From the NCBI GenBank assembly GCA_016929255.1, contig JAFGJH010000041.1, forward strand, positions 4,313 through 68,312: a stretch of DNA of 64,000 bases, in the 5' to 3' direction. Below, piece by piece: positions 4,248 through 46,345 of this stretch (its first letter is position 1; every line of letters starts with the position of its first letter). The translations under genes and the position numbers were made by a program. This DNA is from Candidatus Woesearchaeota archaeon (GTDB lineage Archaea; Nanobdellota; Nanobdellia; Woesearchaeales; UBA11576). The notes below the pieces were generated by a model that worked only from the letters and a program-made list of their open reading frames with translations, had not been told where the DNA came from and did not search any database.

Positions 4248-4277
4248 TATCAAAGAAAAGAATTTTTTTTCAAACCT

Positions 4278-6017
4278 TCAATCTTCCATCGTTGACAAGT
4301 CTCCTATAGGCAGACCAAGTTCCTGCGCCTTGAGCACGCGCCTCATGATCTTGCCAGAGCGGGTCTTGGGAAGCGTGTCACGGAACTCAATCTCTTTCGG
4401 GTATGCGTGGCCTGCAAGCTTTGTCTTGATAAAATTCTTGATATCTGCCTTCAGATCATCAGACGGCTTATGCCCTTTCTTCAATGAGATGAACGCCTTG
4501 ATTATCTCGCCATACATATCGTCAGGCTTGCCGATGACACCCGCCTCTGCCACAGCAGGATGCTCTACCAAGGCAGACTCAACCTCGAAAGGGCCGACCC
4601 TGTGGCCTGCAGTCTTTATCACGTCATCAGCCCTGCCGACAAACCAGAAATAACCGTCCTCATCCATCCAGGCACGGTCACCGCTGATGTACCAGCCGCC
4701 CTTGAAATAGGAATCATACTTCTCCTTGTTGTTCCAGATCTCCACCATCATGCTCGGCCAGCCGGGTCTTATAGCAAGATTACCTTCTGTCTTGACGGGA
4801 ACTTCATTTCCTCTGTCATCAACGATGCCCGCGGTGATGCCCGGGAAAGGCTTGCCCATGCTGCCAACCTTCACATCCATGCAGGGATAGTTCGCGATAA
4901 GTATGCCTCCTGTCTCTGTCTGCCACCAGTTGTCATGGAACGCAAGACCGATATGCTCAAGTCCCCACCAGATGGCCTCGGGGTTCAGAGGCTCGCCGAC
5001 AGAGGCAAGATGGCGCAGGCTCGAAAGGTCATATTTCCTAGCGATGTCTGCACCCTCCTTCATCATCATGCGGATAGCAGTCGGAGCAGTGTACCACACA
5101 GTCACCTTGTAGTCATTGATGACCTTGTACCATTTCTCAGCGCTGAACCTCCTGGCATCGACAATGCTCGTGATTCCGTTCGAGAAAGGCCCGAGTATGC
5201 CATAAGCGATGCCGGTCACCCAGCCCGGGTCAGCAGTGCACCAGTAAATATCGTCAGGCTGCAGGTCAAGGATCCACTTGGTCGTAAGATGCTGATGGAT
5301 TATGTCATAATGCGTATGGACAACACCTTTAGGCCTGCCCGTGGTGCCTGAGGTGTAGAGCATGTAGGCGCGGTCCTCAGGTTCCATGTGAACAATTTCA
5401 AAATCCTTGGATGCTGACCACATCTCCTGGTTGTAGCTCAGCTCACCTTCTTCAGGCACGTAATCCCCTGTGACGATGACTTTCTGAAGCTCAGGAAGCC
5501 TGCCGCGTACCTTGTCGACACGCTCCTTCAGAGTAAGATCAGTCACGACAATCTTCGCCCCGCTGTCATTCAGCCGGTCGAACAGGGCATCAGGACCAAA
5601 AGCGGCAAACAGCGTAGAGGCGATGGCACCTGTCTTCAGGATGCCGAGGAAACTCACGTAAAGCTCCTCGATCCTCGGAAGGAAAATGAACACGCGATCG
5701 CCTTTCTTGACACCTTGTTTTGCCAGTACGTTGGCAAACCTGTTCGAAAGCATCGCGATATCCTCAAATGTGGGGTGCTTTGTGCTGCCCTCATCGATGA
5801 TGTGCAGAGCCACCCTTTTCTTCAGCGGAGTCTTGAGGTGGCGGTCGACAGCGACATAAGCAGCATTCATCTTTCCATCAACAAAGAACTCAATCTCATC
5901 CTTGTGAACATCATAAGAGAATTCCTTCCGCGCGAACTTGTAATCCTTAAGGTTAGGCATCTTCTTGAGCCTGCCAACCTCTTTCTTTATGACCTTAGGA
6001 TGCTGTTCCGCCATCAT
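4278..6017 (-). CDS. acs: AMP-forming acetyl-CoA synthetase (bacterial AcsA-like, ~570-aa class)
   Basis: 579-aa ORF with the AMP-binding motif YTSGTTGRPKGVVHTH, plus WWQTETGG and the C-terminal LPKTRSGKIMRRVLKA...GDLSTMED. From memory, the overall pattern closely resembles Bacillus-type AcsA. Confidence 0.88.
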   Translation of the reverse strand: MMAEQHPKVIKKEVGRLKKMPNLKDYKFARKEFSYDVHKDEIEFFVDGKMNAAYVAVDRHLKTPLKKRVALHIIDEGSTKHPTFEDIAMLSNRFANVLAKQGVKKGDRVFIFLPRIEELYVSFLGILKTGAIASTLFAAFGPDALFDRLNDSGAKIVVTDLTLKERVDKVRGRLPELQKVIVTGDYVPEEGELSYNQEMWSASKDFEIVHMEPEDRAYMLYTSGTTGRPKGVVHTHYDIIHQHLTTKWILDLQPDDIYWCTADPGWVTGIAYGILGPFSNGITSIVDARRFSAEKWYKVINDYKVTVWYTAPTAIRMMMKEGADIARKYDLSSLRHLASVGEPLNPEAIWWGLEHIGLAFHDNWWQTETGGILIANYPCMDVKVGSMGKPFPGITAGIVDDRGNEVPVKTEGNLAIRPGWPSMMVEIWNNKEKYDSYFKGGWYISGDRAWMDEDGYFWFVGRADDVIKTAGHRVGPFEVESALVEHPAVAEAGVIGKPDDMYGEIIKAFISLKKGHKPSDDLKADIKNFIKTKLAGHAYPKEIEFRDTLPKTRSGKIMRRVLKAQELGLPIGDLSTMED

Positions 6018-6099
6018 AACACCTCTTTAAGCCCCAAAAGGGGGAAATTATTTAAATAGTTTTCCTGTATCACCCATCCTATCAAAAAAGAGGCTGATA

Positions 6100-7191
6100 A
6101 TGGAGCACATACTGATACTGAACATCGGATCTTCTTCAATAAAGTATAACCTGTTCAAAGGAGAGCAGACAGCGCTCAAAGGATACCTCGAAAGGGTCAC
6201 TGATTACGGAAAAGGAATAAAGCAGATCATTGCCGAGATAAACAAGAAAGGGCTCAGCGTGGATGCAATAGGCCACAGGGTAGTGCACGGAGGGACACAC
6301 CAGGAATCTGCGCCGCTTGACACAAAAAAGGTCAAGGAGCTGGAGAACATATCAGAGCTCGCTCCGCTGCACAACATACCAGAGGTAAAAGGGATAAAAA
6401 TCTGCATGAAGCTGTTCAAAGTCCCCCAGGTGGCCGTGTTCGACACAGCTTTCCACCAGACAATGCCTGAGAAGGCATACACTTACGCAATACCTGCAGC
6501 ACTCGCCGCTAAGTACAAGATAAAACGTTATGGCTTCCATGGCACGAGCCACAACTATGTGGCGCATGAGGCCGCAAGGCTTACGGGCAAGCCGCTGGAA
6601 AAAGCGAAGATAATAACCTGTCACCTAGGAAACGGCTGCAGCATAACGGCAATAAATCACGGCCATTCAATAGACACCTCGATGGGATTCACGCCGCTTG
6701 AAGGGCTCGTTATGGGCACGCGAAGCGGCGACATAGACCCCGCAATCATACCGTTCATCCAGCAGAAAGAAAAGCTCAGCCACAAACAGGCAGAGGAAAT
6801 GCTCAACAAGAAGTCAGGGTTGCTCGGGCTGTGCGGAAAGAAAGACATGCGGGACATACATGCCGCGAGAGCGACAGATAGCAAGGCAAAACTCGCGCAC
6901 GACGTGTTCTGTTACAGGCTCACTAAGTACATAGGAGCATACATCGCAGCGATGAACGGAGTCGACGCGATAGTGTTCACAGGAGGCATCGGAGAGAACG
7001 CCTGGTGGGTCCGCGAGGACGTGCTCGAGAACTTCAGCCACATCGGGCTGAGGCTCAACAAGAAAGCGAACAGGAACAACGAGACAAAAATATCCTCATT
7101 TGCGTCAAGGGTGCGGCTCTTCGTGATACCTACGAACGAGGAGCTGATGATGGCGAGGGAAGTGAGGAAGACTCTCAGAGACAGGGTATGA
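6100..7191 (+). CDS. ackA: acetate kinase
   Basis: 363-aa ORF with ILILNIGSSSIKYNLF, HRVVHGG, YGFHGTSHNYV, CHLGNGCSI, GTRSGDIDP and FTGGIGENA, which are the acetate/propionate kinase signatures. Confidence 0.9.
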   Translation: MEHILILNIGSSSIKYNLFKGEQTALKGYLERVTDYGKGIKQIIAEINKKGLSVDAIGHRVVHGGTHQESAPLDTKKVKELENISELAPLHNIPEVKGIKICMKLFKVPQVAVFDTAFHQTMPEKAYTYAIPAALAAKYKIKRYGFHGTSHNYVAHEAARLTGKPLEKAKIITCHLGNGCSITAINHGHSIDTSMGFTPLEGLVMGTRSGDIDPAIIPFIQQKEKLSHKQAEEMLNKKSGLLGLCGKKDMRDIHAARATDSKAKLAHDVFCYRLTKYIGAYIAAMNGVDAIVFTGGIGENAWWVREDVLENFSHIGLRLNKKANRNNETKISSFASRVRLFVIPTNEELMMAREVRKTLRDRV

Positions 7192-36388: not shown

Positions 36389-39382
36389 ATGAGGTCCTTA
36401 AAGGGATTTACAAATCAAAGGGAATTCAAAGGGCCTTCACCCCGCCCAAAGGCACCCCCTGAAGATGTTTCTCATATCTTAAGCGCCGGATACTTTCCAT
36501 TCCTCAAGAGATACAGCACAAAAGAGAGCTTCGGTGAGAAGAACCGCTACCAGAAGATAAAGATAACCTCGGTGGACCGCTTCGAGGAGTGCATAACAGG
36601 CATACGCGAAAGAATCACGGCTTCGCGCACCGGAACAGGAAGCAGCACAAAAGGCCTGCTCTTCTGCGGCCCTGTCGACGGAGTGGACGAGGTCCTAAGC
36701 GCATATGCCAGCATATGCTCAAATGAAGACACTGCATACGCCATATTCTTTGACATAAACCCATATAAGATAGACTACTTCACCTTCAGGCTCTTCCTGA
36801 CACGCATATCAGAGACAAGGGAAGAGTACTTCAGGAACCTATTTTTCTACCTGCAGGGGGACAAGGCAATGCCTGCCATGCAAATACTCGAAAAAGCCGC
36901 AAGAAACACGGTGACAAAGGAGCTGCACGCGGACTACCTCATACACCTGACAAAACAAAGGCTACAGGACAGGGCGCAGCTTCTTAGGCCATACATAAAG
37001 AAGGGCATAGAGCTCCTGAACATCGTCAGAGAAGGGAGAACGCACTACAAAAGCCTCGCAAAGAGGCTTGCCCAGAACATCAATCTCAATCCTTCCACGC
37101 ACTGGCTCTCCGACGAGAGACACTACCAGGCAGTGCGCGAGGCAAGCGTGAGCGAGAGGATAAAGGCAGTACAGGCAGATCTTAACAGGGGAGGCAAGAA
37201 AGAGATACTCAGGATAATAAAAGAGACGGGTCTCAGGCCAGCGCTGCTGTACATACCCAAGGGCAAGAAGAAGTTCTCAGGAAGCGGGGAGCTCGTCGAG
37301 ACATTCGAGACATGCGTAGACACTTTACCCCCGCAGAGCAAGAAAGAGAAGCACAGGGTATGGAACATCATGGAGCCAGAACGCTTCTTCTCGACTCCTC
37401 AGTTCCAGCACCAGGGCGAGCTCTCAGGCAAGCAGCTCATGCTCCTCACAGAGGACTACAAGCAGAGGACCAGCATAACAAGGAAATTTGACGAGAGATG
37501 CAGCATAATGCTCCTCGGAGACGTGCCTTTCGGAAGGCTCTACCTTGATGACAGGTCAAGGAAGTTCATCGACAAGATACAGGAATACGCCAACAGGTAC
37601 GATGTGAAGCACATAGCGCTCTGCGGCGACATCATCGACGGCGAGCACACCCGGGAGAAGAGGAAGCTCGCACTGCTCCAGTACCTGTCAGACGAGCCCC
37701 AGCCCTCAATAGAGCAGCAGTGCAGGCTCGCGGCAGATTTCATATCAGGGTTCAAAGGCAATGTCTACTCAGTCACTTCCGACGGCGACTGGGACATAAT
37801 AGAGGAGAAGCAGAGAGAGCTCATAAACCAGAAGGAATTCCAGTACAAGATAGAGAAGAACACAGGCCACATACCTGACGACGTCAGGAAAAGCCTCAGG
37901 GTCGAGGCGATATTCGAGGCGGCAAAGGAATACTATGACTATGTCGAGCGTCAGATAAAGCTGTCCGAGAAGATAGGAGACTCGCTGCACCTGAACTTTG
38001 ACACGGCCAGCGTCAGGCTTTCGCACATGAGCATAGGCCAGTATTTCAGGAGGAGCCTCTCAAAGTCCGTCGGGGTGAAGGAGCAGCAGATAATAAACCA
38101 GCTTCTGGCCCTGCACGACAGCGAAGAGCAGAAAGACATTGAGGTCAAGGTCAGCTCGCACGACAACGTGCTCCAGGCCAGCATGGAGACTGAAAACACG
38201 CTAAACATCAGGGTGCCGTCGCTCGAGTCACCGACACAGTACGATTCCATACCTGTACAGATAAGGAGCGCGGTCCAGGACACTATGCACAAAGCACTTT
38301 CTGTCAGGGGAAAGATGCCCTTCCTATCATCGTGCAAAGTAGAGGTCACGGACGACGCACGAATACTCATAACAGTCATAAACGAGAAGCTGCTCAACAT
38401 GCTGGAGCAGCACAAGAGCCTGCCTGCAGAGGAATATATCATATTCAGCCTCACAGACACGCACGTAGGGTCAATAGCGAACAGGCATGACTACCTCATA
38501 AAATACATGGACTATGCCAAGAGCCTGGCGCAGAAGCTCCAGGAGAAGCAAGGCATAAGGAAGGTTGGCAGGATAGCCATTCTCAACGGCGACCTCGTCG
38601 AAGGAATAAACTACCCTACAGCGATGATGAGGAACGCTCCCACAAGGCTGGTCATACCGCAGACCCAGGTAAGCTGCGCACTGGAGCTCATGAAGCCGTT
38701 CTTCTTCACAGAAAAAGAAGGCCAGCTCAAGATAGACAAAGACATAGAACACATCTTGCTGACGCACGGAAACCACGAGTACAACTCAGGGTTCATACAC
38801 AGCGGCATGATGGCAACCCAGACAGTACTCCAGTACTTCAAGGCGCACATGGAACGCGAGTATGGCCCTGAAGAGGTCAAAAGAAGGCTGATGTACAGCC
38901 TCTACGTCAGCGTAGACCGCAACAAAACACTTTTCACTTCGATAGGCGCGTTCTCAAAGCTCGGCCTGAACGTCCACATGATGCACTCATACGGCGGAAG
39001 GCCGAACATGGCAAACGCCACGCCGCCCCAGGAAAGGTGGGTAACGAAGATGGGAAGCCTCGCAAAGCCATGGGACATACTCATCCAGGGCCACTACCAC
39101 CAGTTCTCGCTCGGCGAAGTGGCAGGAAAGGTCCTTCTTACATTCCCATCTTTCACAGAGGTCTCGGACTTCGAGTATGAACGGGGGCTGGACTCGCCGA
39201 TGTGCGGGGTCCTGCTCCACCTGTCATCGAAATACGGCCTTGTCATAGAGATACTGACAAGGAGATTCCTGGACAGCTACAAGTGCCAGCACCCGATGTT
39301 CAGAAACATAAGCGTCAAGAGATTCTACGAGCAATGCGTCGAGAAGGCGCTCGAGCCGGCGGACCTGACAGGGTTCAGGTAG
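36389..39382 (+). CDS. 997-aa orphan protein: unknown N-terminal region + degenerate metallophosphoesterase-like module + intact calcineurin/Mre11-type metallophosphoesterase module
   Basis: Intact motifs: DTH (aa 690-692), GDLVEG (733-738), GNHE (794-797), HMMH (863-866), GHYH (901-904). The upstream module keeps GDIIDGEH (413-420) but has DVP and DGDWD where DxH and GNHD/E are expected. Confidence 0.75.
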   Translation: MRSLKGFTNQREFKGPSPRPKAPPEDVSHILSAGYFPFLKRYSTKESFGEKNRYQKIKITSVDRFEECITGIRERITASRTGTGSSTKGLLFCGPVDGVDEVLSAYASICSNEDTAYAIFFDINPYKIDYFTFRLFLTRISETREEYFRNLFFYLQGDKAMPAMQILEKAARNTVTKELHADYLIHLTKQRLQDRAQLLRPYIKKGIELLNIVREGRTHYKSLAKRLAQNINLNPSTHWLSDERHYQAVREASVSERIKAVQADLNRGGKKEILRIIKETGLRPALLYIPKGKKKFSGSGELVETFETCVDTLPPQSKKEKHRVWNIMEPERFFSTPQFQHQGELSGKQLMLLTEDYKQRTSITRKFDERCSIMLLGDVPFGRLYLDDRSRKFIDKIQEYANRYDVKHIALCGDIIDGEHTREKRKLALLQYLSDEPQPSIEQQCRLAADFISGFKGNVYSVTSDGDWDIIEEKQRELINQKEFQYKIEKNTGHIPDDVRKSLRVEAIFEAAKEYYDYVERQIKLSEKIGDSLHLNFDTASVRLSHMSIGQYFRRSLSKSVGVKEQQIINQLLALHDSEEQKDIEVKVSSHDNVLQASMETENTLNIRVPSLESPTQYDSIPVQIRSAVQDTMHKALSVRGKMPFLSSCKVEVTDDARILITVINEKLLNMLEQHKSLPAEEYIIFSLTDTHVGSIANRHDYLIKYMDYAKSLAQKLQEKQGIRKVGRIAILNGDLVEGINYPTAMMRNAPTRLVIPQTQVSCALELMKPFFFTEKEGQLKIDKDIEHILLTHGNHEYNSGFIHSGMMATQTVLQYFKAHMEREYGPEEVKRRLMYSLYVSVDRNKTLFTSIGAFSKLGLNVHMMHSYGGRPNMANATPPQERWVTKMGSLAKPWDILIQGHYHQFSLGEVAGKVLLTFPSFTEVSDFEYERGLDSPMCGVLLHLSSKYGLVIEILTRRFLDSYKCQHPMFRNISVKRFYEQCVEKALEPADLTGFR

Positions 39383-39408: not shown

Positions 39409-40269
39409 TCATTCATTGTAGACCGTTATGAAAGTCTCGGCAACAGGAGACTCGCCGACAAAATCATAGGTGTCTGGAGGCACATACCTTGCAGTGACCT
39501 TGTGTGCATAGGACCCTTTCGGCAGGTTGCCCGGAAGATTCATTGTAATAGGTATTATCTTCTCAGGCACGTCTGGAGTCATGTGGACGAGAGAGCCCTG
39601 CCAGCTGAAACTGCTGCTCAGAGGCCCATCCAGGTAGAGAAGGACAGTATAGTCAGCATGCTGCCTGTTGGTCAGCTTCAGCTCGATGACCCTCGCAGGC
39701 TCAGAACTGTAGTCTATAGGCACGACGAGCGGCTCGAGTTCAAAGTCAATGATCCTGCCGTACACGTACTTGATGCCGCTTATGTTGATCCAAGTGTTGT
39801 CAAGCTCAAAGATGAGGGTGTTATCGCCGCCAAGGCCCCCGACATGGCAGGTATCATAGCACATGTCACTGAAAGCAATGCCTTCTGATGCATCACCCTC
39901 AAAATAATATGCAAGATACTTCCTGTCTTTACCTTTGAGGAAGACAGCAGCCTTGCCATCGCCATAGACTGTTCCTGAAAGCATCAACGAATTTATGCTG
40001 TCAAGGTCTGTCTTTATCCTGACCTCTCCGGGCTCAAAGACCGCGAAGCTGCCTGGCTCTGCGCTGACTACAGACTCGCTGAACGTCACAAAACCGGTGG
40101 CGTCCGGCCCAAGATAGAAAAGCGCAGCAACACAAGCCACTGCCATGGCAAAAACAAGGAAATAGCCTGCGAAAGTAGAAACTCCACTGCCGCCCGCAGA
40201 GCCCGAAATAGAATCAATCTTCCTGTTTATCCTCTTCAACTCTTCCAAAGCGGCTTTCTCTTGCTTCAT
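39409..40269 (-). CDS. type-II membrane protein with beta-rich ectodomain, function unknown
   Basis: 286-aa ORF with a short N-terminal helix, one TM segment (FAGYFLVFAMAVACVAALFYL), then a ~220-aa non-hydrophobic domain. Confidence 0.65.
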   Translation of the reverse strand: MKQEKAALEELKRINRKIDSISGSAGGSGVSTFAGYFLVFAMAVACVAALFYLGPDATGFVTFSESVVSAEPGSFAVFEPGEVRIKTDLDSINSLMLSGTVYGDGKAAVFLKGKDRKYLAYYFEGDASEGIAFSDMCYDTCHVGGLGGDNTLIFELDNTWINISGIKYVYGRIIDFELEPLVVPIDYSSEPARVIELKLTNRQHADYTVLLYLDGPLSSSFSWQGSLVHMTPDVPEKIIPITMNLPGNLPKGSYAHKVTARYVPPDTYDFVGESPVAETFITVYNE

Positions 40270-40333
40270 ATTCCCTCTTTTAAGGAGTGGCTATGGTCTC
40301 AAAAGTATATAAAGTTTGTTGTTGGTTGTGTCA

Positions 40334-40482
40334 GCAAAAAGTGTCGCCTGCGGTGGGTGCCGCCAGTTCGCTCTTAATGATATTTGGTGAAACCCTGCCT
40401 CCCCCTGCAAGGGACATCCCCCTTGCCTGTGCGCATCATCACCTAAATGAGCCCGCAGATTGGCGGCACCACCGCTTTTTGC
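40334..40482. repeat. 149-bp element with long terminal inverted repeats (rod-like hairpin)
   Basis: All 22 nt of the right arm TGGCGGCACCACCGCTTTTTGC (40461-40482) pair with the left arm 40334-40365 if bulges of 9 nt and 1 nt are allowed. Inner stem ATTTGGTGA / TCACCTAAAT. TATATAAA (40306-40313) lies ~26 nt upstream of the element start. Confidence 0.8.
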
Positions 40483-40551
40483 CAAGCCTGTTTGTGCAAT
40501 AGACAAAAATTTAAATATGCAGTAAGCAACATGAGTGTAAAGAGGTGCAAC

Positions 40552-41013
40552 ATGGGCCTTCCGAAAACAACAGCATATCTTGTCGAGTGGTTCGTAAGAT
40601 ACACCAAGAACCGCGACCTGCTGTTCAGGAAGATATCAGAGATCAAGGAAGAGGACGACAAGGTCCTTGTCAAGCAGAAGGACGGCAAGACACTTCTTTA
40701 CTATATCCAACCATTCCCCTGCGAGTTCGCAAAGCTGGCAGAGTCAATCCAGCAAGACCAGAAAGGCCTGGTGGTCTACAACTCAAGGGAAAACTTCGAA
40801 AACATGATGAAGGAATGGAAAAGCCTGACAGAAATAAGAGGCCTGACAATATACTTCGTGAACCCGTTCTCAAAGCTCGAAAAGAGATGGATAATAAGCC
40901 CCAACATACACAGCAAGATATCAGACGCACAGTCCCTGAAGGAGGGGCTGAATTCCATGTACCTGATGGTCGACCCGATATCAAAGGAAGAGGTCGAAGA
41001 ACTCACCAAATGA
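40552..41013 (+). CDS. hypothetical cytoplasmic protein
   Basis: ORF 40447-41013 starts inside repeat D. TTTAAATA at 40510-40517 predicts a transcription start near 40540, so the first usable ATG is 40552 (MGLPKTTAYLVEWF...); the alternative is 40531. I recognise no motif. Confidence 0.55.
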   Translation: MGLPKTTAYLVEWFVRYTKNRDLLFRKISEIKEEDDKVLVKQKDGKTLLYYIQPFPCEFAKLAESIQQDQKGLVVYNSRENFENMMKEWKSLTEIRGLTIYFVNPFSKLEKRWIISPNIHSKISDAQSLKEGLNSMYLMVDPISKEEVEELTK

Positions 41014-41026
41014 ATTCTTGATAAGA

Positions 41027-41262
41027 GCGCCCCGCACCAGGTTTAGAGAGGCAGCTGCCACGTTGCTAGTGATGCTTTGCCGGCAAGCAGAAGACTTGCG
41101 CACCACTAGAGGCTACGCCTTTCGCATACTGCTGGACAAGTACCTGTCTCCGCCCAGTCATCCAACCGACGTGTCAGAAACCCAAATGTTTCTGAGCATG
41201 CTCAGAAATGCTGAGCATTTCTGACACAAAGAGCGGCGGCAGCCGCCACGCACGCGCGGCGG
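41027..41262. repeat. GC-rich mosaic element sharing a ~120-bp module with 48543-48663, plus a cluster of alternating TCAGAAA/TTTCTGA inverted repeats
   Basis: Shared strings with element G: GCCACG.TGCTA, TTTGCCGGCAAG, AGAGGCT, GCATAC, ATCCAACCG. Perfect 20-bp palindrome TTTCTGAGCATGCTCAGAAA (41189-41208). Terminal motif AAAGAGCGGCGGCAGCCGCCACGC (41228-41251). Confidence 0.8.
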
Positions 41263-41268
41263 AGCTAA

Positions 41269-41820
41269 TCACCACTTCGACTTGTTAATGCCCAGATAGA
41301 ATCCTATATGGTTGGTCAGGATGTGCAGTATCGGCACGACAACCAGCAGGAAAAGCATGACTTTCCAGGAAGGGATGTACACTAACGCCAGGAACAACAG
41401 CGCACCCACAACAAAATCAAGCTGGTCAAAAGGTATCCAAGGCTTTCCAGGCTTCACACCGACCCTGCGCTTGAAGAAACTCTTGACCAGGTCACCGAAC
41501 AGGGCGCCGAAGCCCAAAAGCATGCCAAGAATCACGAAATTGTGCGCAGAATAGTCGATAAGGCTCGCCTGCCTAAGCCACCCAGATGAAGAGAAAAGCA
41601 CGGACTGCACGTATGCGATGATGATTGCGGCAGTTATTCCGAAGAAAAGTCCCCTGTAAGTCTTGTGAGAACCAAACAGCGGCTTCCCTTTCCACCTGGC
41701 ACCCAAGTCCACAGGATAGCCGAGAAAATTGACCTTCCTGAAGAGCGGCGGGACAAGGTTAGCCAGAAGCGCGGGCAAAAGCATGTACAAAGACTGAAAA
41801 GCTAAAAAAAGGAAGCCCAC
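41269..41820 (-). CDS. carS: CDP-archaeol synthase
   Basis: 183-aa polytopic membrane ORF (GTG 41820; ATG 41784) with LLPALLANL, KTYRG, and GDLVKSFFKRRVGVKPGKPWIPFDQLDF, which fits the CarS (DUF46) signature. Confidence 0.8.
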   Translation of the reverse strand: MGFLFLAFQSLYMLLPALLANLVPPLFRKVNFLGYPVDLGARWKGKPLFGSHKTYRGLFFGITAAIIIAYVQSVLFSSSGWLRQASLIDYSAHNFVILGMLLGFGALFGDLVKSFFKRRVGVKPGKPWIPFDQLDFVVGALLFLALVYIPSWKVMLFLLVVVPILHILTNHIGFYLGINKSKW

Positions 41821-41828
41821 TTTGCCAC

Positions 41829-42356
41829 CTATATGAACTTCTTTATGCGGAACGCGCTTATCATGAGTATGGCTGCGACAAGGAATATGAACGGGTACCA
41901 GCTGGTCAGGCCGAAAAAGTAGAACAGCGGAACAACCACACCATTCAGGGTTATGGGCATGCCCTCAAAATAATGCAGCTCCTTGACATTGAACCTCGCA
42001 AGCCTCAGCGCGCCAGCAGCGAGGAACACCATGTAGATAATGGCCGCGAATATCCAGCCCTCACCGATGTCCTTGGTGGTCTGGAAGGCGAACACCACAG
42101 GCGCGACGCCGAAAGACACGATGTCGCACAACGAGTCCAGCTCCTTTCCGATGACCGTGACCTTATCCATATAGCGGGCAATCCTGCCGTCTATGAAATC
42201 AAAGAAAACAGCCGCCAGCATAAACACCGCGGCAAGCTTCAGTTCGCCGGATATCGCGAACAGCACGCTGATCATGCCACAAAGAATATTCATCAATGTC
42301 AATACATGAGGAAACTCAATCAGACGGAACATGCTAAAATTCTCTTTGATGTTCAT
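41829..42356 (-). CDS. pssA: CDP-alcohol phosphatidyltransferase, archaetidylserine synthase-like
   Basis: Exact CDP-OH_P_transf motif DFIDGRIARYMDKVTVIGKELDSLCDIVSFGVAP. ATG 42356 (TTG 42362 in the ORF track) lies within 3 nt of the psd stop. Confidence 0.8.
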   Translation of the reverse strand: MNIKENFSMFRLIEFPHVLTLMNILCGMISVLFAISGELKLAAVFMLAAVFFDFIDGRIARYMDKVTVIGKELDSLCDIVSFGVAPVVFAFQTTKDIGEGWIFAAIIYMVFLAAGALRLARFNVKELHYFEGMPITLNGVVVPLFYFFGLTSWYPFIFLVAAILMISAFRIKKFI

Positions 42357-42358
42357 AT

Positions 42359-43006
42359 TCAAAACCTCGCAACCGCAGTTTCACCATCAACCACCTTCTG
42401 GCCCTCACTGACCAGCACCTTGACGTCCGGAATCACAAGTATCACCTGAGACCCAAGGCATATGAGACCAAGCTCGCCCCCTTTATGTATTTTTTGCTTG
42501 GGCCTGACAAAACACCTTATCCTGCGGGCCATGAAGCCGGCCACCTGCACCACCTTGAGCTTGCCAACCCTCCTGTGGCGAAGCAATATCTCATTACGCT
42601 CGTTAACCAAAGCCCTCAAAGATGCTGCATCCTTGACCGCGTTCAGGAACCTGCCCCTTGTATAAGAGACCTTTTCAACGACACAGTCGGCAGGAGCTCG
42701 CTGGAAATGGACATCGAAAGGAGTCATCATGATGACAATCACATAACCTCTCTTGATGGTATCCCTGACAAGCAGATCAATCTTCCCCAACAGACCTTTG
42801 CTAATCCCCGCTGATGCTACACCATCACCAATACTTATTATCCTGACCACCTTTCCGGAGGCAGGGGATACAAGCACATCACCTGCAGGGACATCGCGTC
42901 GAGGCTTACGCAGGAAATAGAACCTGTAGAAGACAGAAAGCAGGGCTATCGCTGCCAACACCACGACAAGAGCAATCAAAACCACAACTGATATTTCCGA
43001 AGCCAT
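42359..43006 (-). CDS. psd: phosphatidyl-/archaetidylserine decarboxylase proenzyme-like
   Basis: 215-aa ORF with an N-terminal TM anchor and a C-terminal CLGSQV resembling the LGST self-cleavage site of short Psd/Asd proteins. Confidence 0.7.
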   Translation of the reverse strand: MASEISVVVLIALVVVLAAIALLSVFYRFYFLRKPRRDVPAGDVLVSPASGKVVRIISIGDGVASAGISKGLLGKIDLLVRDTIKRGYVIVIMMTPFDVHFQRAPADCVVEKVSYTRGRFLNAVKDAASLRALVNERNEILLRHRRVGKLKVVQVAGFMARRIRCFVRPKQKIHKGGELGLICLGSQVILVIPDVKVLVSEGQKVVDGETAVARF

Positions 43007-43007
43007 T

Positions 43008-43451
43008 TTAAGGATAGTAAAAAGCGAAGTGCAAAATCACCGTAACGGCGATCCCCACAATGACACCGACAACAGCCTGCACAGGAGTATGTCCTGTTAT
43101 CTTGAGCAGTTCAGCGACCCCCAGCCTCTTTGAGCGGATTATCTCATTCACGCTGCGCGCCAAGGTGTCAACAGCATGCCTGACACCAAACGCATCCCTG
43201 ACGACCACCACAGCAAAACCTGCCGCAAGGAAGAATATGGTCGACAGGAAACCCTCAACAAGACCGACGCTGACCGCAAGGGAGCACACGAAAGTCGAGT
43301 GCGAAGAAGGCATGCCGCCTGTAGCGACCAGCGCATACCAGTCCAGCTTCATCTTCCTGAACGACTTGTCGATGAACTTCCATATCTGGCAGATGACGCT
43401 CGCCACTATCACAGACACAACAATCTGGTTGGTCACAATATCCATAAACAT
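43008..43451 (-). CDS. divergent PAP2-family membrane protein (DUF212-type acid phosphatase-related)
   Basis: 147-aa ORF with GGMPSSHS and the four-TM layout typical of the divergent PAP2 family. Confidence 0.7.
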   Translation of the reverse strand: MFMDIVTNQIVVSVIVASVICQIWKFIDKSFRKMKLDWYALVATGGMPSSHSTFVCSLAVSVGLVEGFLSTIFFLAAGFAVVVVRDAFGVRHAVDTLARSVNEIIRSKRLGVAELLKITGHTPVQAVVGVIVGIAVTVILHFAFYYP

Positions 43452-43497
43452 ACCATCACCTCAAATGCAAACCAATAACATCTAAGCCCTGTGCGCC

Positions 43498-44370
43498 TCA
43501 GCATATTATCCTTATCGCCTTAGGGAAAACATTCACTGTCAAGGGAGTCCTGCCGATAGGCTCGGCATCAGTGTGCGCCAGCACGGGTTTCTTTGACTTT
43601 ATCCTTATACGTTTCACCTTGAAATACTCGATGTTCGCGAACTCAGTTAGGGGGATAAATCCCTTTGAGGCGGCACTCACAAAATACTGAAACATGTTTA
43701 TGAGGTCTGTCCGCTTGAATATGCAAACGTCGAGGTAGCCATCGTCAGGCTCTGCGAACTGAGCTATCTGCAGGTTGTTGCCGTAATACTTGACATTGCC
43801 GATGACAACGAAATAGCCCCAGCGCGGAAGCACCTGGTCATCAAGCCAGACCTCCATCTTGCTGGGAACATGAGTAAGCAGTGTCTGCAGAGCGGTCAGA
43901 GGGTACACTCCCCTGCCGAGAAGCTTCTTCAGCACAGGCTTGATGCTCGCAACAGCCTTGGCGTCCATCCCCACGCCTGCAGTCAGTATGAAAAACCTCT
44001 TCTTGGCCTTGCCAAGGTCGAGTGTCCTGCACTTGCCGCGCACTATCACTCTCGCGGCAGCCAGGTAATCCAGAGGAATGCCGAGGCCCTGCGCAAGGCA
44101 GTTCTCAGTGCCTAACGGTATGATGCCCAGCCTTGTCTTGGATCCCGCAAGGCCATTGATGGTCTCGTTGATGGTACCGTCACCGCCGGCGGCAATCACT
44201 GCCGAGTACTTCCTGACAGCAGCCCTTGCCAGGCGCTTAGCGTCAAGAGGCCTTTGCGTCTTCTTAACATCGAGCCTTATGCCCTGCCCCTCAAAGAATC
44301 CTTTGAGTTCATCCTCTATCCTCCTGGCACGCCCCGCGCGCGGGTTCATGATCAAAAGATATCTCCTCAT
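43498..44370 (-). CDS. diacylglycerol-kinase-family lipid kinase (YegS/BmrU-like)
   Basis: RYLLIMNPRAGRAR at the N-terminus (ATG 44370 inside ORF 43498-44403) and the AAGGDGTINETINGL catalytic motif. Confidence 0.8.
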   Translation of the reverse strand: MRRYLLIMNPRAGRARRIEDELKGFFEGQGIRLDVKKTQRPLDAKRLARAAVRKYSAVIAAGGDGTINETINGLAGSKTRLGIIPLGTENCLAQGLGIPLDYLAAARVIVRGKCRTLDLGKAKKRFFILTAGVGMDAKAVASIKPVLKKLLGRGVYPLTALQTLLTHVPSKMEVWLDDQVLPRWGYFVVIGNVKYYGNNLQIAQFAEPDDGYLDVCIFKRTDLINMFQYFVSAASKGFIPLTEFANIEYFKVKRIRIKSKKPVLAHTDAEPIGRTPLTVNVFPKAIRIIC

Positions 44371-44381
44371 CTCCAGCACAC

Positions 44382-45101
44382 CTACTTCTTGGCGAAGCGC
44401 CACATGAACTCAAAATAGTTCCTGAAACCGTCGGCGATGTTGTCCTCCCTTATGAGTATGCCGACAGGGTCAGGCCTCCAGGCGACGATGCATATGTTCC
44501 GGTCGTAGATGTTGACCGCGGTATTTGAGGTTATACTGTCAGGGACGAACCTCACCTCTGCCAGAGGTATCTTGGAGATGTAAGGGTGGATCCTCTCAGA
44601 CTCGTTGAAGATTATCCTGACCTTAATCCTCTTCTTGACACGCTGCCTATCGAAGTGGGGGAAGTAGAAATCAAGAATCTCAACAGCCTTTGTAGTCGCG
44701 CCCCAGATGCACACCTCCCTGGCCTTGTCGAGCTGGTCATCGAAAGCGCTCTTCAACGCGGCCTTACCCCTGAAGAACAGGGTCTCGTTCTTGCCCTCTG
44801 TCATCTGCTGCAGAGCCTTCAGCTCAGGCAGTATTGCTTTTACATCCTCTTCCCTCTTGCGCAGAATCTCTATGAGCCTCTCAGGGCTGACTGCCTCGAA
44901 ATACTTCCGGTTGTTTGACTTTATGTAAGAAACAAGGCCCTTCTGTATGAGCCTCTCGATGGAATCATAGACAGAACGGCGGTGGATGCCTGTGTTGCGT
45001 GAGATGCTGCCCGCAAGGCTTGCTCCCTGCTCAAGAAGGACAAGATAAATCTTCGCCTCTGATGAGGTCAGGCCCATCTCCTCAAGCACTTCCTGTTTCA
45101 T
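44382..45101 (-). CDS. TrmB-family transcriptional regulator
   Basis: N-terminal LGLTSSEAKIYLVLLEQGASLAGSISRNTGIHRRSVYDSIERLIQKGLV winged helix. Immediately upstream of, and co-directional with, the lipid operon. Confidence 0.75.
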   Translation of the reverse strand: MKQEVLEEMGLTSSEAKIYLVLLEQGASLAGSISRNTGIHRRSVYDSIERLIQKGLVSYIKSNNRKYFEAVSPERLIEILRKREEDVKAILPELKALQQMTEGKNETLFFRGKAALKSAFDDQLDKAREVCIWGATTKAVEILDFYFPHFDRQRVKKRIKVRIIFNESERIHPYISKIPLAEVRFVPDSITSNTAVNIYDRNICIVAWRPDPVGILIREDNIADGFRNYFEFMWRFAKK

Positions 45102-45225
45102 GACAGAACAGACAGCAGAGCAGTATATAAAATTTGTGGGAAACTAACCACCACAATCAGCAGCAGGTAAAATCAGAAGAGACCAAATGCAAAAGAAAAG
45201 GGGAAAAATTCGAAGGATCACGCAA

Positions 45226-45498
45226 TCAAGCGCTCTCTTCTTCCTGAGAGGCGGTCGGGACAGCGGCCTTGCTGATTATCATCACGTCGCCGATGGATTT
45301 GACCAGCTGATGAGGGACTATCACACCCCTCGCAGAGCCGAGGACCTTTGAAAGATAAGAATTCTTGGTGGCCTTCACGCGCCATCCATGGATCTTTGTC
45401 TTTGTGATGATTGCCTCTTCGACATCACCGAAGTACTCACCGTTGTCAGTGAAGACCTTCATATCGTATGTTTCTGAAACGCGCTCAAGTTTCAACAT
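45226..45498 (-). CDS. PRC-barrel domain protein
   Basis: 90-aa ORF (VFTDNGEYFGDVEEAIITKTKIHGWRV...) with a GGAGG Shine-Dalgarno upstream. Paralog-like to 18388-18651. Confidence 0.55.
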   Translation of the reverse strand: MLKLERVSETYDMKVFTDNGEYFGDVEEAIITKTKIHGWRVKATKNSYLSKVLGSARGVIVPHQLVKSIGDVMIISKAAVPTASQEEESA

Positions 45499-45631
45499 GC
45501 TAATCCCTCCTTTATGACAGTAAAGTCTAACCTTGCCATTCCCTATTCCCTCTTGATTTATAAACTTTACTATTGAATAATGGTCTTTTAAATGCTAAAA
45601 TATTTATACGCAGCGCCTCTTGTGCAAATCC

Positions 45632-46345
45632 ATGCAGTACAAGAAACTGACCATAATAGGGACATCCCACATAGCCAAGCAGAGCCTCAAGGAGATAGAG
45701 GAAGCGTTCGGGAGGCACAAGCCAGAGATAGTCGCGGTAGAGCTGGACCGAAGAAGGCTGCACTCGCTCCTGACAGATGAAAAAGCGCACGCAGGCATAG
45801 GTCAGATACCTAAAGTGGGTCTCAAAGGATACCTCTTCGCGCTGATAGGAGGATGGCTGCAGAGAAAGCTGGGCACAGCAGTGGGAGTCATGCCAGGATC
45901 AGAAATGAAGCTTGCTGTGGAGTTCGCACGGAAGACCAAGGCAAAGATAGCGCTCATAGACCAGGACATAGAAGTGACACTCAGGAAGTTCTCTCAGAGG
46001 CTCACCTGGAAAGAGAAATTCAGGTTCGTGGGAGACCTCCTCAAGTCGGTCTTCTTCAAGAAAAGATCGCTGCGCGAGATAGGGATAGACCCTAATAGCT
46101 TTGACCTCTCCAAAGTTCCTGAGAAAGAGCTGGTCAGGAAACTGATACTCCAGCTCAAGGACCGCTACCCAAATGTCTATGACGTGCTGGTCAGGGAAAG
46201 GAATGTGATAATGGCAAACAACCTCGCAAAGCTCATGCACAAATACCCTGACGAGACAGTGCTTGCAGTGGTGGGAGCGGGACACGAAGAAGAGATGATA
46301 GAGATGGTCAGGAAAAGGCTGGAAGGAAAGGCGGATGTGGTGTGA
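45632..46345 (+). CDS. TraB/PrgY-family protein
   Basis: LTIIGTSHIAKQS, IVAVELD and VVGAGHEEEM motifs. ATG 45632 lies ~25-30 nt downstream of the TATA-like ATTTATAC (45602-45609). Confidence 0.7.
   Translation: MQYKKLTIIGTSHIAKQSLKEIEEAFGRHKPEIVAVELDRRRLHSLLTDEKAHAGIGQIPKVGLKGYLFALIGGWLQRKLGTAVGVMPGSEMKLAVEFARKTKAKIALIDQDIEVTLRKFSQRLTWKEKFRFVGDLLKSVFFKKRSLREIGIDPNSFDLSKVPEKELVRKLILQLKDRYPNVYDVLVRERNVIMANNLAKLMHKYPDETVLAVVGAGHEEEMIEMVRKRLEGKADVV

What the first reader, a model, noticed from the sequence alone, without database searches (positions are those of the whole stretch)
41269..45101. Compact lipid head-group operon with kinase and phosphatase-like partners: possible archaeol salvage route
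Five co-directional, almost contiguous genes encode:
- a DAGK-family lipid kinase
- a divergent PAP2-like protein
- a Psd-like decarboxylase
- a PssA-like CDP-alcohol transferase
- CarS

A TrmB-family regulator lies immediately upstream.

Established chemistry: CarS activates archaetidic acid to CDP-archaeol. PssA forms archaetidylserine. Psd yields archaetidylethanolamine.

A lipid kinase at the head of the operon could phosphorylate scavenged archaeol (the diether analog of diacylglycerol) to archaetidic acid. The PAP2-like protein could catalyse the reverse step. Together these would let a cell without isoprenoid or ether-lipid core synthesis re-head-group host lipids. No core-lipid genes are visible in this window, but the rest of the genome is unknown.
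Basis: inference. Interest (0 to 1): 0.6.

Follow-up and report, generated by a model that had tools for sequence, protein, structure and literature searches.

The report
DPANN lipid head-group operon with kinase
A tiny symbiotic-type archaeon (Woesearchaeota) keeps the last three enzymes of archaeal phospholipid head-group synthesis in one regulated operon with a bacterial-type lipid kinase and a putative lipid phosphatase. This is a concrete, testable candidate for how such cells re-use lipids they probably cannot make, but the salvage idea itself is not yet shown.

Summary
On the minus strand, 45101 to 41269, lie six tightly spaced genes:
- a TrmB-like regulator
- a DgkB/YegS-type lipid kinase
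- DUF212 ('divergent PAP2')
- archaetidylserine decarboxylase
- archaetidylserine synthase
- CarS

The organism is a Woesearchaeota (DPANN) archaeon.

The same order recurs in relatives whose kinases are only 54-67% identical. However, the operon is modular:
- About half of the related operons lack the kinase.
- Some lack TrmB.
- One lacks CarS.
- The constant trio is DUF212-Psd-PssA.

The DPANN kinases form one clade nested among bacterial homologues, which suggests a single horizontal acquisition.

I also found a palindrome, TGTGG-N11-CCACA, abutting the TATA box upstream of TrmB. It is present in 8 of 8 TrmB-bearing loci and in 0 of 5 TrmB-less loci, so it is a likely operator.

The salvage reading (archaeol to archaetidic acid to CDP-archaeol to AS to AE) is plausible. 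A published survey found GGGPS and DGGGPS absent from Woesearchaeota.

Caveats:
- The kinase is dispensable to the operon.
- Characterised CarS prefers unsaturated DGGGP.
- The catalytic loops of DUF212 appear to face the cytoplasm.

Verdict: a real operon and a new variant of a known pathway module. Interest is moderate.

The parts
45135..45155 (-). Candidate operator: inverted repeat TGTGG-N11-CCACA directly upstream of the TATA box of the TrmB-like gene
   Evidence: It occurs once in the 64-kb window, against 0.23 expected. The same palindrome sits at the same place in 8 of 8 distinct TrmB-bearing loci (window, L001, L086/L169, L089/L171, L091, L172, L098, L173). It is absent from the 5 TrmB-less loci checked.
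45124..45132 (-). TATA-box-like element TTTTATATA, 22 nt before the TrmB ATG; probable operon promoter giving a leaderless or short-leader transcript
   Evidence: Read directly from the sequence. TTTATATA is conserved in the alignment of eight upstream regions.
44382..45101 (-). TrmB-family winged-helix regulator (239 aa) with an unassigned C-terminal domain; first gene of the operon
   Evidence: PF01978 E 4e-17, covering the N-terminal 74 residues only. PDB match to TrmB 3QPH, E 4e-6, over residues 5-140. It is conserved (63-82% identity) in type A and type B operons.
43498..44370 (-). Soluble DgkB/YegS/BmrU-type lipid kinase (290 aa; the ORF is open up to GTG 44403)
   Evidence: - PF00781 + PF19279; TIGR00147 is above its cut-off.
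- The best solved relative is S. aureus DgkB 2QV7, E 1e-26.
- GGDGT, DDGYLD and HTDAE motifs are invariant in the DPANN clade.
- The start at 44370 matches the homologues and an independent gene call.
43008..43451 (-). DUF212 'divergent PAP2' four-helix membrane protein (147 aa), putative histidine phosphatase with cytoplasm-facing catalytic loops
   Evidence: - PF02681, 125 bits.
- Invariant K25, P48-S-S-H51, D86, R91 and G120-H121 in 51 homologues.
- AF2 model with pLDDT 86.5.
- K/R count: 3.4 + 6.7 in loops 1 and 3, against about 0.4 on the other side.
- There is no significant PDB fold or sequence match.
42359..43006 (-). Archaetidylserine (phosphatidylserine) decarboxylase proenzyme, short form (215 aa)
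   Evidence: PF02666 E 1.5e-39. TIGR00164 AS_decarb is the best NCBIfam hit, but at 142 bits it is below the 230 cut-off. The LGSQ self-cleavage site is conserved in all orthologues.
41829..42356 (-). CDP-alcohol phosphatidyltransferase of the serine type (archaetidylserine synthase, 175 aa)
   Evidence: - PF01066; TIGR00473 pssA scores 120 against a cut-off of 107.
- The motif D-x2-DG-x2-AR-x8-G-x3-D-x3-D is intact.
- The best PDB hit is the M. jannaschii serine transferase 7POW, E 3e-16, against 7e-4 for PgsA 7DRJ.
41269..41820 (-). CDP-archaeol synthase CarS (183 aa), last gene of the operon
   Evidence: PF01864 E 9e-34. NF003114 equivalog scores 151.8 against a cut-off of 148. PDB 5GUF (A. 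pernix CarS), E 2e-16.
45226..45498 (-). Context, not part of the pathway: a highly conserved small PRC-barrel protein gene, co-directional and upstream. With the divergent TraB gene (45620-46345, +) it forms the synteny anchor of the locus
   Evidence: PF05239. It is 74-93% identical across Woesearchaeota. I used it to fetch 80 related loci.

Best explanation
This is the polar head-group operon of a Woesearchaeota (DPANN) archaeon. It is transcribed from one promoter upstream of a TrmB-like regulator, which probably autoregulates it through a TGTGG-N11-CCACA operator.

**Shown**
- The six gene families.
- Their tight spacing.
- Conservation of the order in a clade of Woesearchaeota.
- The conserved promoter and palindrome.
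- The bacterial origin of the kinase.

**Inferred from the established functions of the families**
- CarS converts archaetidic acid or DGGGP plus CTP to CDP-archaeol.
- The serine-type CDP-alcohol transferase makes archaetidylserine.
- The decarboxylase makes archaetidylethanolamine.

**Inferred, less certain**
- The DgkB-like kinase works at the cytoplasmic membrane face. It phosphorylates a diradylglycerol-type lipid alcohol (archaeol, digeranylgeranylglycerol or a similar scavenged core lipid) to the phosphatidate analogue that CarS needs.
- Woesearchaeota are reported to lack GGGP and DGGGP synthases. The kinase would therefore be an entry point for re-head-grouping lipids obtained from other cells, or for recycling the cell's own lipids.
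- DUF212 is a cytoplasm-facing lipid-phosphate (or small-molecule phosphate) phosphatase. It is tied to the serine/ethanolamine branch, and its substrate is unknown.
- The kinase is an accessory module, not an obligatory one. Many related operons work without it at this locus.
For: **Gene identities:**

**Catalytic motifs intact**
- Kinase GGDGT, DDGY and D-A-E.
- CAPT motif and Psd LGS site.
- DUF212 invariant K, PSSH, D, R and GH.

**Operon structure**
- Gaps between the genes from a 4-nt overlap to 46 nt; 11 nt between TrmB and the kinase at its corrected start.
- Shine-Dalgarno-like GGAG/GAGGTGA before the kinase and DUF212, and no TATA box in the internal gaps.
- A single TATA box plus palindrome upstream of TrmB, conserved in 8 of 8 TrmB-bearing loci.

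**Conservation and descent**
- The full order is conserved at 54-67% kinase identity.
- In the kinase tree, all kinases checked in that clade are operon-linked, and the clade has 99% SH-aLRT support. This indicates long vertical co-inheritance with the lipid genes.
- None of 80 bacterial kinase loci has these neighbours, so the linkage is specific to this archaeal lineage.

**Literature**
- Woesearchaeota lack GGGPS and DGGGPS, and only some have the MEP pathway (PMC8421398).
- DPANN archaea generally depend on host lipids (PMC6349945, PMC11035636).
- Genome-reduced archaea that lack isoprenoid synthesis still keep CarS and PssA (PMC12411855).
Against: - The kinase is absent from the operon in L089, L091, L171, L172 (TrmB-DUF212-Psd-PssA-CarS) and in L090, L170 (DUF212-Psd-PssA-CarS). 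On the TraB+PRC tree these are interleaved with kinase-bearing loci, so there were at least two loss or regain events.
- Matching contig lengths between searches gives a rough count among DUF212 clusters on contigs of 5 kb or more. About 13 carry the kinase and up to 16 do not.
- Sister lineages have the kinase next to PRC/TraB without any lipid gene.
- One operon has the kinase but no CarS (L173).
- CarS activity in Methanothermobacter membranes prefers unsaturated DGGGP to saturated archaetidic acid, and AfCarS discriminates against acyl PA (PMC9385802).
- The absence of core-lipid genes in this particular genome was not tested.
- No RNA evidence was found.
- The kinase substrate is unknown. 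Family members phosphorylate DAG, PG, ceramide or sphingosine (my own knowledge).
Confidence: 0.5

Rival explanations
1. Ordinary end of a complete pathway. The genome makes its own core lipids elsewhere, for example with MEP-derived isoprenoids. The operon is then the normal CDP-archaeol/AS/AE branch. The kinase and DUF212 form a housekeeping kinase/phosphatase pair that balances archaetidic acid and archaeol, as DgkB recycles diacylglycerol in Firmicutes. No host lipids are involved.
For: A clade of Woesearchaeota carries the bacterial MEP pathway, with a UbiA prenyltransferase and G3P dehydrogenase nearby (PMC8204110). The kinase is dispensable in many operons. The DUF212 active site is predicted on the same (cytoplasmic) face as the kinase. 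The genome-wide absence of core genes is untested.
Against: A comparative study of Woesearchaeota MAGs reports that both GGGPS and DGGGPS are absent, even from MEP-bearing members (PMC8421398). K17104 and K17105 do not occur in the 54 supplementary files of that paper held as text. No core-lipid gene is in this 64-kb window or in the ±10-kb flanks of the related loci whose genes were listed.
Confidence: 0.17
2. The kinase is functionally unrelated to the head-group genes. Both simply occupy the same variable slot downstream of the conserved TraB/PRC pair. The kinase acts on another substrate, such as a bacterial-type diacylglycerol, a polyprenol or a non-lipid.
For: - Kinase-only loci exist next to PRC (L003, L087), and TrmB-kinase occurs without lipid genes (L098).
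- DUF212 alone lies next to PRC in L138 and L155.
- Kinase-less operons are common.
- The kinase is of bacterial origin.
Against: - Where both are present, the kinase is always inserted between the regulator and DUF212, inside the transcription unit. It is translationally close to both neighbours: 11 nt and 32-102 nt.
- This arrangement has been kept while the kinase diverged to 54% identity.
- TrmB and its operator also accompany the kinase in L098.
- The chemical fit between the product of a DgkB-type kinase and the substrate of CarS is exact (inference).
Confidence: 0.2
3. The module acts on bacterial-type ester lipids taken from bacterial hosts. The kinase makes phosphatidic acid from scavenged diacylglycerol. 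The CarS-family enzyme serves as a general CDP-lipid synthase, giving PS/PE-like lipids.
For: - The kinase is bacterial in origin and closest to DAG kinases.
- Woesearchaeota have been proposed to be episymbionts of bacteria and to carry bacterial lipid-modifying genes (PMC8204110, PMC11868695).
- Crude-membrane CarS activity did not discriminate ester from ether linkage or glycerol stereochemistry when the chains were geranylgeranyl (PMC9385802).
- Unchecked earlier notes describe CarS-plus-kinase modules in CPR bacteria (e1-1130092, e1-1314806).
Against: Purified AfCarS strongly prefers DGGGP over acyl PA and cannot replace E. coli CdsA (PMC9385802). CarS, PssA and Psd here are all closest to the archaeal subfamilies or structures.
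Confidence: 0.1

Closest known systems
Archaeal polar-lipid end pathway: CarS (A. fulgidus, A. pernix 5GUF), archaetidylserine synthase (M. jannaschii PSS 7POW/7B1K), archaetidylserine decarboxylase
   Same: The same three enzyme families, with catalytic motifs intact. CarS passes the NCBIfam equivalog cut-off.
   Different: Here the three genes sit in one operon in reverse pathway order. They are joined to a lipid kinase, a DUF212 protein and a dedicated TrmB-like regulator. The lineage is reported to lack the upstream GGGPS/DGGGPS steps (PMC8421398). The ASS and ASD scores are below the archaeal equivalog cut-offs.
DgkB, the soluble diacylglycerol kinase of Staphylococcus aureus and Bacillus subtilis (PDB 2QV7); YegS/BmrU/Rv2252 family
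   Same: The same two-domain architecture (DAGK_cat + YegS_C). GGDG, DDGY and D-x-E motifs are present. E 1e-26 to 2QV7. By analogy with DgkB, it would recycle a neutral diradylglycerol back to the phosphatidate level.
   Different: It is archaeal, in a single DPANN clade that branches among bacterial sequences. It is embedded in an operon with CarS rather than with bacterial lipid genes: none of 80 bacterial loci has such neighbours. The proposed substrate is an isoprenoid diether, which is untested.
PAP2 lipid phosphate phosphatases (E. coli/B. subtilis PgpB 5JKI, A. aeolicus LpxE 6EBU); Pfam PF02681 DUF212 / B. subtilis YuiD
   Same: It is a clear member of PF02681. It has invariant K, PSSH, R and GH residues that recall the PAP2 motifs KX6RP, PSGH and SRX5HX3D.
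   Different: - It has four helices rather than six.
- The R and H of the third motif are 30 residues apart rather than 5.
- There is no significant fold or sequence match to solved PAP2 enzymes.
- The catalytic loops are predicted cytoplasmic rather than extracytoplasmic.
- No member of DUF212 has a described function in the literature I could search.
TrmB-family sugar-sensing regulators (Thermococcus/Pyrococcus TrmB, 3QPH)
   Same: An N-terminal winged-helix domain and the following helix. A palindromic operator lies at the promoter.
   Different: It is short (239 aa), and the TrmB sugar-binding domain (PF11495) is not detected. It controls, by inference, a lipid operon. Its effector is unknown.

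Membership tests
CDP-archaeol synthase (CarS) | Match to the CarS family models above the curated threshold | tested here: met
   PF01864, 117 bits against a cut-off of 22. NF003114 equivalog, 151.8 against 148. 5GUF, E 2e-16.
CDP-archaeol synthase (CarS) | CTP-dependent activation of DGGGP or archaetidic acid | not testable with these tools
   This needs an enzyme assay. Whether it accepts saturated archaetidic acid is the key unknown (PMC9385802).
Archaetidylserine synthase (serine-type CDP-alcohol phosphatidyltransferase) | CAPT motif D-x2-DG-x2-AR-x8-G-x3-D-x3-D | tested here: met
   DFIDGRIARYMDKVTVIGKELDSLCD starts at residue 55 of the 177-aa ORF. It is conserved in 8 orthologues.
Archaetidylserine synthase (serine-type CDP-alcohol phosphatidyltransferase) | Assignment to the serine-specific subfamily | tested here: inconclusive
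   - TIGR00473 pssA scores 120 against a cut-off of 107: met.
- NF038087 arch_ser_synth scores 124 against a cut-off of 240: not met.
- The best PDB relative is a serine transferase, E 3e-16, against 7e-4 for PgsA.
- The adjacent decarboxylase supports serine (inference).
Phosphatidyl/archaetidylserine decarboxylase | PS_Dcarbxylase domain with a G-S self-cleavage site that gives the pyruvoyl group | tested here: met
   PF02666, 136 bits. LGSQ is conserved in 9 sequences. The equivalog TIGR00164 scores 142, below its cut-off of 230.
DgkB/YegS/BmrU soluble lipid kinases | DAGK_cat domain with a GGDG nucleotide loop, plus the C-terminal YegS_C beta-sandwich | tested here: met
   PF00781 + PF19279. 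TIGR00147 scores 168 against a cut-off of 119. AAGGDGTINE is invariant.
DgkB/YegS/BmrU soluble lipid kinases | Catalytic acid/base D-x-E near the C-terminus and the DDGY site, as in DgkB | tested here: met
   HTDAE aligns with the DgkB D-G-E, and PDDGYLD aligns with the DgkB DDGY. H266, D268 and E270 are invariant or nearly so.
DgkB/YegS/BmrU soluble lipid kinases | Diacylglycerol (or here archaeol) as substrate | not testable with these tools
   None of the specific equivalog models (DgkB, YegS, MamU) reaches its cut-off. The substrate is inferred only from the CarS neighbourhood.
PAP2 superfamily phosphatases | Membership of Pfam PF02681 (DUF212, 'divergent PAP2') | tested here: met
   125 bits against a cut-off of 26.5.
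PAP2 superfamily phosphatases | Canonical PAP2 fold and motifs (KX6RP, PSGH, SRX5HX3D) | tested here: inconclusive
   - PSSH and GH are invariant, as are K25, R91 and D86, but their spacing is non-canonical.
- PF01569 scores only 17 bits, below its cut-off.
- Foldseek gives no significant hit; 5JKI has E 8.5.
- The profile against PDB finds only LpxE, E 0.79.
TrmB-family regulators | N-terminal TrmB winged-helix DNA-binding domain | tested here: met
   PF01978, 62 bits against a cut-off of 25.6.
TrmB-family regulators | C-terminal TrmB effector (sugar)-binding domain | tested here: not met
   PF11495 is not detected in this protein, though it is detected in the other TrmB of the window at 111-932. 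The PDB match to 3QPH covers residues 5-140 only.

The most novel reading that the evidence does not exclude
The DPANN-specific clade of DgkB-like kinases is an 'archaeol kinase', an activity that has not been described. Together with the cytoplasm-facing DUF212 phosphatase and CarS/ASS/ASD, it would form a regulated head-group-exchange (lipid salvage) pathway. This pathway would let Woesearchaeota, which lack GGGPS and DGGGPS, convert core lipids taken from other cells into their own archaetidylserine and archaetidylethanolamine.

In the boldest version, DUF212 removes the foreign phospho-head group or phosphate. All five enzymes then act in one linear route, switched by a lipid- or precursor-sensing TrmB-like regulator.
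Probability: 0.3. Interest if true: 0.75.

Novelty: new variant of a known kind. Interest (0 to 1): 0.5.

Why it matters
How DPANN archaea build membranes without lipid biosynthesis is an open question. Lipidomics shows that a nanohaloarchaeon selectively recruits host lipids (PMC11035636), but no enzymology of remodelling is known.

This operon supplies five clonable candidate enzymes, a candidate regulator and a candidate operator, all amenable to direct assay. If the kinase phosphorylates archaeol, it would be the first enzyme known for re-entry of archaeal core lipids into phospholipid synthesis. That would also bear on proposed lipid recycling by sedimentary archaea.

DUF212 is a widespread family (bacteria, plants, archaea) with no known function. 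Its constant linkage to pssA and psd here is a rare functional clue.

If instead the genome has a full pathway, the finding reduces to a tidy but ordinary operon.

Tried and rejected
1. **Whole-genome search for core-lipid genes.** This was the decisive test and could not be run.
2. **Genome-contig scan with the kinase alignment.** I reused it as a negative control: 80 bacterial loci have no DUF212, Psd, PssA or CarS neighbours. I also used it for the kinase tree.
3. **Transcript evidence.** Three metatranscriptomes from the same study hold nothing from this locus.
4. **Fold-level confirmation of PAP2 for DUF212.** Foldseek against PDB gave no significant hit. The profile against PDB sequences gave only LpxE at E 0.79.
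5. **Supplementary tables of Castelle 2021.** A search for Pfam names found nothing.
6. **Literature search** for 'archaeol kinase' and similar phrases: zero papers. Searches for DUF212 returned only unrelated DUF212x families.
7. **Earlier notes of this scan on this genome.** Nothing turned up on lipid or isoprenoid genes in the other two windows.
8. **Rejected: an extracellular 'dephosphorylate, flip, rephosphorylate' uptake model.** The positive-inside count places the DUF212 catalytic loops in the cytoplasm.
9. **Rejected: DUF212 as the AGP or AIP phosphatase of this operon.** The only CDP-alcohol transferase present is serine-type.
10. **Considered: the AMP-binding gene at 4278-6017 as a fatty-acid ligase.** It is an acetate-CoA ligase.

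Full report
**What is there**

The stretch 41269-45101 holds six co-directional minus-strand ORFs. Pfam and NCBIfam identify them, in order of transcription, as follows:
- A TrmB-family winged-helix regulator (44382-45101).
- A two-domain DAGK_cat + YegS_C lipid kinase (43498-44403). It is above the TIGR00147 YegS/Rv2252/BmrU cut-off.
- A DUF212 'divergent PAP2' membrane protein (43008-43451).
- A phosphatidyl/archaetidylserine decarboxylase (42359-43006).
- A CDP-alcohol phosphatidyltransferase above the pssA cut-off (41829-42362).
- CarS, above its equivalog cut-off (41269-41820).

Homologues and an independent gene call place the kinase start at ATG 44370 (290 aa) and the PssA start at ATG 42356.

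The closest solved relatives are:
- S. aureus DgkB 2QV7 (E 1e-26) for the kinase.
- A. pernix CarS 5GUF (2e-16).
- The M. jannaschii serine transferase 7POW (3e-16, against 7e-4 for a PgsA).
- TrmB 3QPH, N-terminal part only.

Catalytic motifs are intact:
- GGDGT, DDGY and D-A-E in the kinase.
- The full CAPT motif, and the LGS cleavage site of the decarboxylase.

**Organism and window context**

Named homologues of the kinase and of DUF212 come from Woesearchaeota / Nanoarchaeota / DPANN MAGs. Earlier notes of this scan on the same genome say the same.

The rest of the window encodes:
- Informational genes: a ribosomal protein operon, PCNA, RFC, primase, Hef and PAN.
- Peptidases.
- A bacterial-type Pta/Ack pair with an acetate-CoA ligase.

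It holds no core-lipid or isoprenoid gene.

**Operon structure and regulation**

- Gaps are 11 nt (TrmB-kinase, with GGAG before the ATG), 46 nt (kinase-DUF212, with GAGGTGA), 1 nt, a 4-nt overlap and 8 nt.
- The only TATA-like element is TTTTATATA (45124-45132), 22 nt before the TrmB ATG.
- Directly upstream of it lies the inverted repeat TGTGG-N11-CCACA (45135-45155).
- Aligning the upstream regions of eight distinct TrmB-bearing loci shows the same palindrome fused to the same TATA box in all eight. This includes a locus where TrmB is followed only by the kinase.
- Five loci without TrmB have a plain TATA box and no palindrome.
- The motif occurs once in the 64-kb window, against 0.23 expected.

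I read this as the operator of an autoregulated operon. This is an inference, and no binding data exist. No RNA data could be found to test co-transcription.

**Conservation**

I used the kinase, DUF212 and the very conserved neighbouring PRC-barrel gene as probes and collected about 90 Woesearchaeal loci. Downstream of the divergent TraB | PRC pair, the following arrangements occur:
- **A:** TrmB-kinase-DUF212-Psd-PssA-CarS. Window; L086 and L169 (GCA_964406185.1); L001 (868-kb contig). Kinase identity 54-67%.
- **A':** the same without CarS. L173.
- **B:** TrmB-DUF212-Psd-PssA-CarS, without the kinase. L089, L091, L171, L172.
- **C:** DUF212-Psd-PssA-CarS, without TrmB and without the kinase. 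L090, L170.
- **D:** the kinase alone, or TrmB-kinase. L003, L087, L098.
- DUF212 alone. L138, L155.
- Neither, in most of the more distant loci.

Trees:
- On a TraB+PRC tree, all operon-bearing loci form one clade (SH-aLRT 96). Type A (L001) is at its base, types A, B and C are interleaved inside, and kinase-only loci are its sister.
- In the kinase tree, the kinases I checked for context in one clade are all operon-linked. That clade has 99% support and mirrors the TraB+PRC tree.

The simplest history is as follows. The kinase was already at this locus, and the head-group genes were joined to it once. Both were then co-inherited for a long time. The kinase (with or without TrmB) was later lost from the operon at least twice.

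Matching contig lengths between the two protein searches gives a rough count among DUF212 clusters on contigs of 5 kb or more. About 13 have the kinase on the same contig and up to 16 do not. All four of the latter that I inspected were indeed kinase-less. The constant core is therefore DUF212-Psd-PssA, usually with CarS. The kinase and the regulator are frequent but dispensable additions.

**Origin of the kinase**

In a tree of 24 DPANN and 77 bacterial sequences, the DPANN kinases form a single clade (SH-aLRT 97) that branches among bacterial lineages. This is consistent with one ancient acquisition from Bacteria. None of the 80 bacterial kinase loci has DUF212, Psd, PssA or CarS within 10 kb. 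A bacterial DUF212 gene that I inspected lies among xseB and fhs, not among lipid genes. The linkage is thus an innovation of this archaeal lineage.

**DUF212**

- An alignment of 51 homologues has invariant K25, P48-S-S-H51, D86, G89, R91 and G120-H121. This is a full set of PAP2-type catalytic residues, but with non-canonical spacing.
- The AlphaFold model is confident (pLDDT 86.5) and shows four long helices.
- Neither Foldseek nor a profile search finds a significant solved relative. B. subtilis PgpB appears at E 8.5 and LpxE at E 0.79. The PAP2 relationship therefore rests on the Pfam assignment and on motifs.
- Counting K+R over the alignment gives 3.4 and 6.7 in loops 1 and 3, which carry all the invariant residues. 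The opposite side has 0.4, 0 and 0.04.
- By the positive-inside rule the active site faces the cytoplasm, unlike classical PAP2 enzymes. This argues against an outside-dephosphorylation/inside-rephosphorylation uptake model.
- It leaves the substrate open: archaetidic acid, another lipid phosphate, or even a soluble phosphate ester such as phosphoserine (speculation).

**Does the cell lack core-lipid synthesis?**

The literature gives indirect support:
- A comparative analysis of Woesearchaeota MAGs found only the bacterial MEP pathway, confined to two subgroups. It noted the absence of GGGP synthase and DGGGP synthase (PMC8421398). Their KEGG identifiers do not occur in the 54 supplementary files of that paper held as text.
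- Reviews state that most DPANN archaea lack lipid synthesis (PMC6349945; PMC11868695).
- Against a blanket assumption, Castelle et al. report a Woesearchaeal clade with MEP genes next to a UbiA prenyltransferase and G3P dehydrogenase (PMC8204110).

**Mechanism and caveats**

A DgkB-type kinase produces exactly the class of molecule that CarS consumes, a phosphatidate analogue. In an organism without GGGPS and DGGGPS, CarS has no other obvious source of substrate. That is the strength of the salvage/recycling reading.

Its weaknesses are:
- The dispensability of the kinase (above).
- The reported preference of CarS for unsaturated DGGGP over saturated archaetidic acid and over acyl PA. The authors of the review stress that this rests on crude-membrane assays and needs re-testing (PMC9385802).
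- The complete lack of substrate data for this kinase clade.

I put about 0.5 on 'the kinase feeds CarS from a diradylglycerol-type lipid as part of recycling or salvage'. I put about 0.3 on the full host-lipid head-group-exchange pathway. The rivals take the rest: a housekeeping cycle in a cell with a complete pathway; an unrelated kinase that merely shares the locus; and action on bacterial ester lipids.

**Novelty**

The CarS/ASS/ASD chemistry is textbook. The retention of these genes in genome-reduced archaea has been noted, for example for Panguiarchaeum (PMC12411855).

In the searchable literature I found no description of:
- a lipid kinase or DUF212 linked to these genes in DPANN archaea,
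- an archaeol kinase,
- or the TrmB-type operator
.

Unchecked earlier notes of this scan mention similar modules elsewhere:
- A polyprenol-kinase-like gene with carS, DUF212, ASS and PSD in another reduced archaeon.
- CarS plus a lipid kinase plus a CAPT in CPR bacteria.

These are leads that fit the idea of recurrent kinase-CarS coupling. They are not independent evidence.

I classify the finding as a new variant of a known kind, of moderate interest.

Noticed in passing
window 45226-45498 (-) and 45620-46345 (+): A 90-aa PRC-barrel protein is 74-93% identical across very divergent Woesearchaeota, far more conserved than its neighbours. It is almost always paired divergently with a TraB/PrgY/GumN-family gene. 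From memory, small PRC-barrel proteins (CdpB) act in archaeal cell division, so this may be the DPANN counterpart.
   Followed up: partly
window 3228-7191: A bacterial-type phosphotransacetylase (3228-4247) and acetate kinase (6100-7191) flank an acetate-CoA ligase (4278-6017, NF003313, 882 bits). The Pta/Ack pathway in Woesearchaeota was noted by Castelle et al. 2021. The three-gene arrangement with Acs between them may deserve a look.
   Followed up: no
window 41027-41262: Immediately after the CarS stop lies a GC-rich stretch (GCTCCGCCGCGCGTGCGTGGCGGCTGCCGCCGC) followed by a long inverted repeat (CAGAAATGCTCAGCATTTCTGAGCATGCTCAGAAACATTTGGGTTTCTGAC). It belongs to the family of GC-rich intergenic repeats flagged in another note (e1-2852082) and may double as the operon terminator.
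   Followed up: no
L173:9403-10446 (ENA ERZ925376 contig, 15.9 kb): This is a variant operon, TrmB-kinase-DUF212-Psd-PssA, that ends without CarS. PssA is longer here (195 aa) and abuts the conserved 151-aa reverse gene. I could not check where CarS is in that genome.
   Followed up: no
window 39409-41013 and 36389-39382; L086, L169, L170, L172 equivalents: Downstream of CarS, three genes without any Pfam match are conserved in order across the operon-bearing clade, followed by PCNA. They encode proteins of about 153-188 aa, about 285 aa and about 995 aa.
   Followed up: no
L140:1906-2598 (also L126, L129): In another Woesearchaeal lineage, a lone Psd gene (34% identical) sits about 7 kb from the TraB/PRC pair, next to a GNAT acetyltransferase and unannotated genes, without PssA, CarS or DUF212.
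   Followed up: partly
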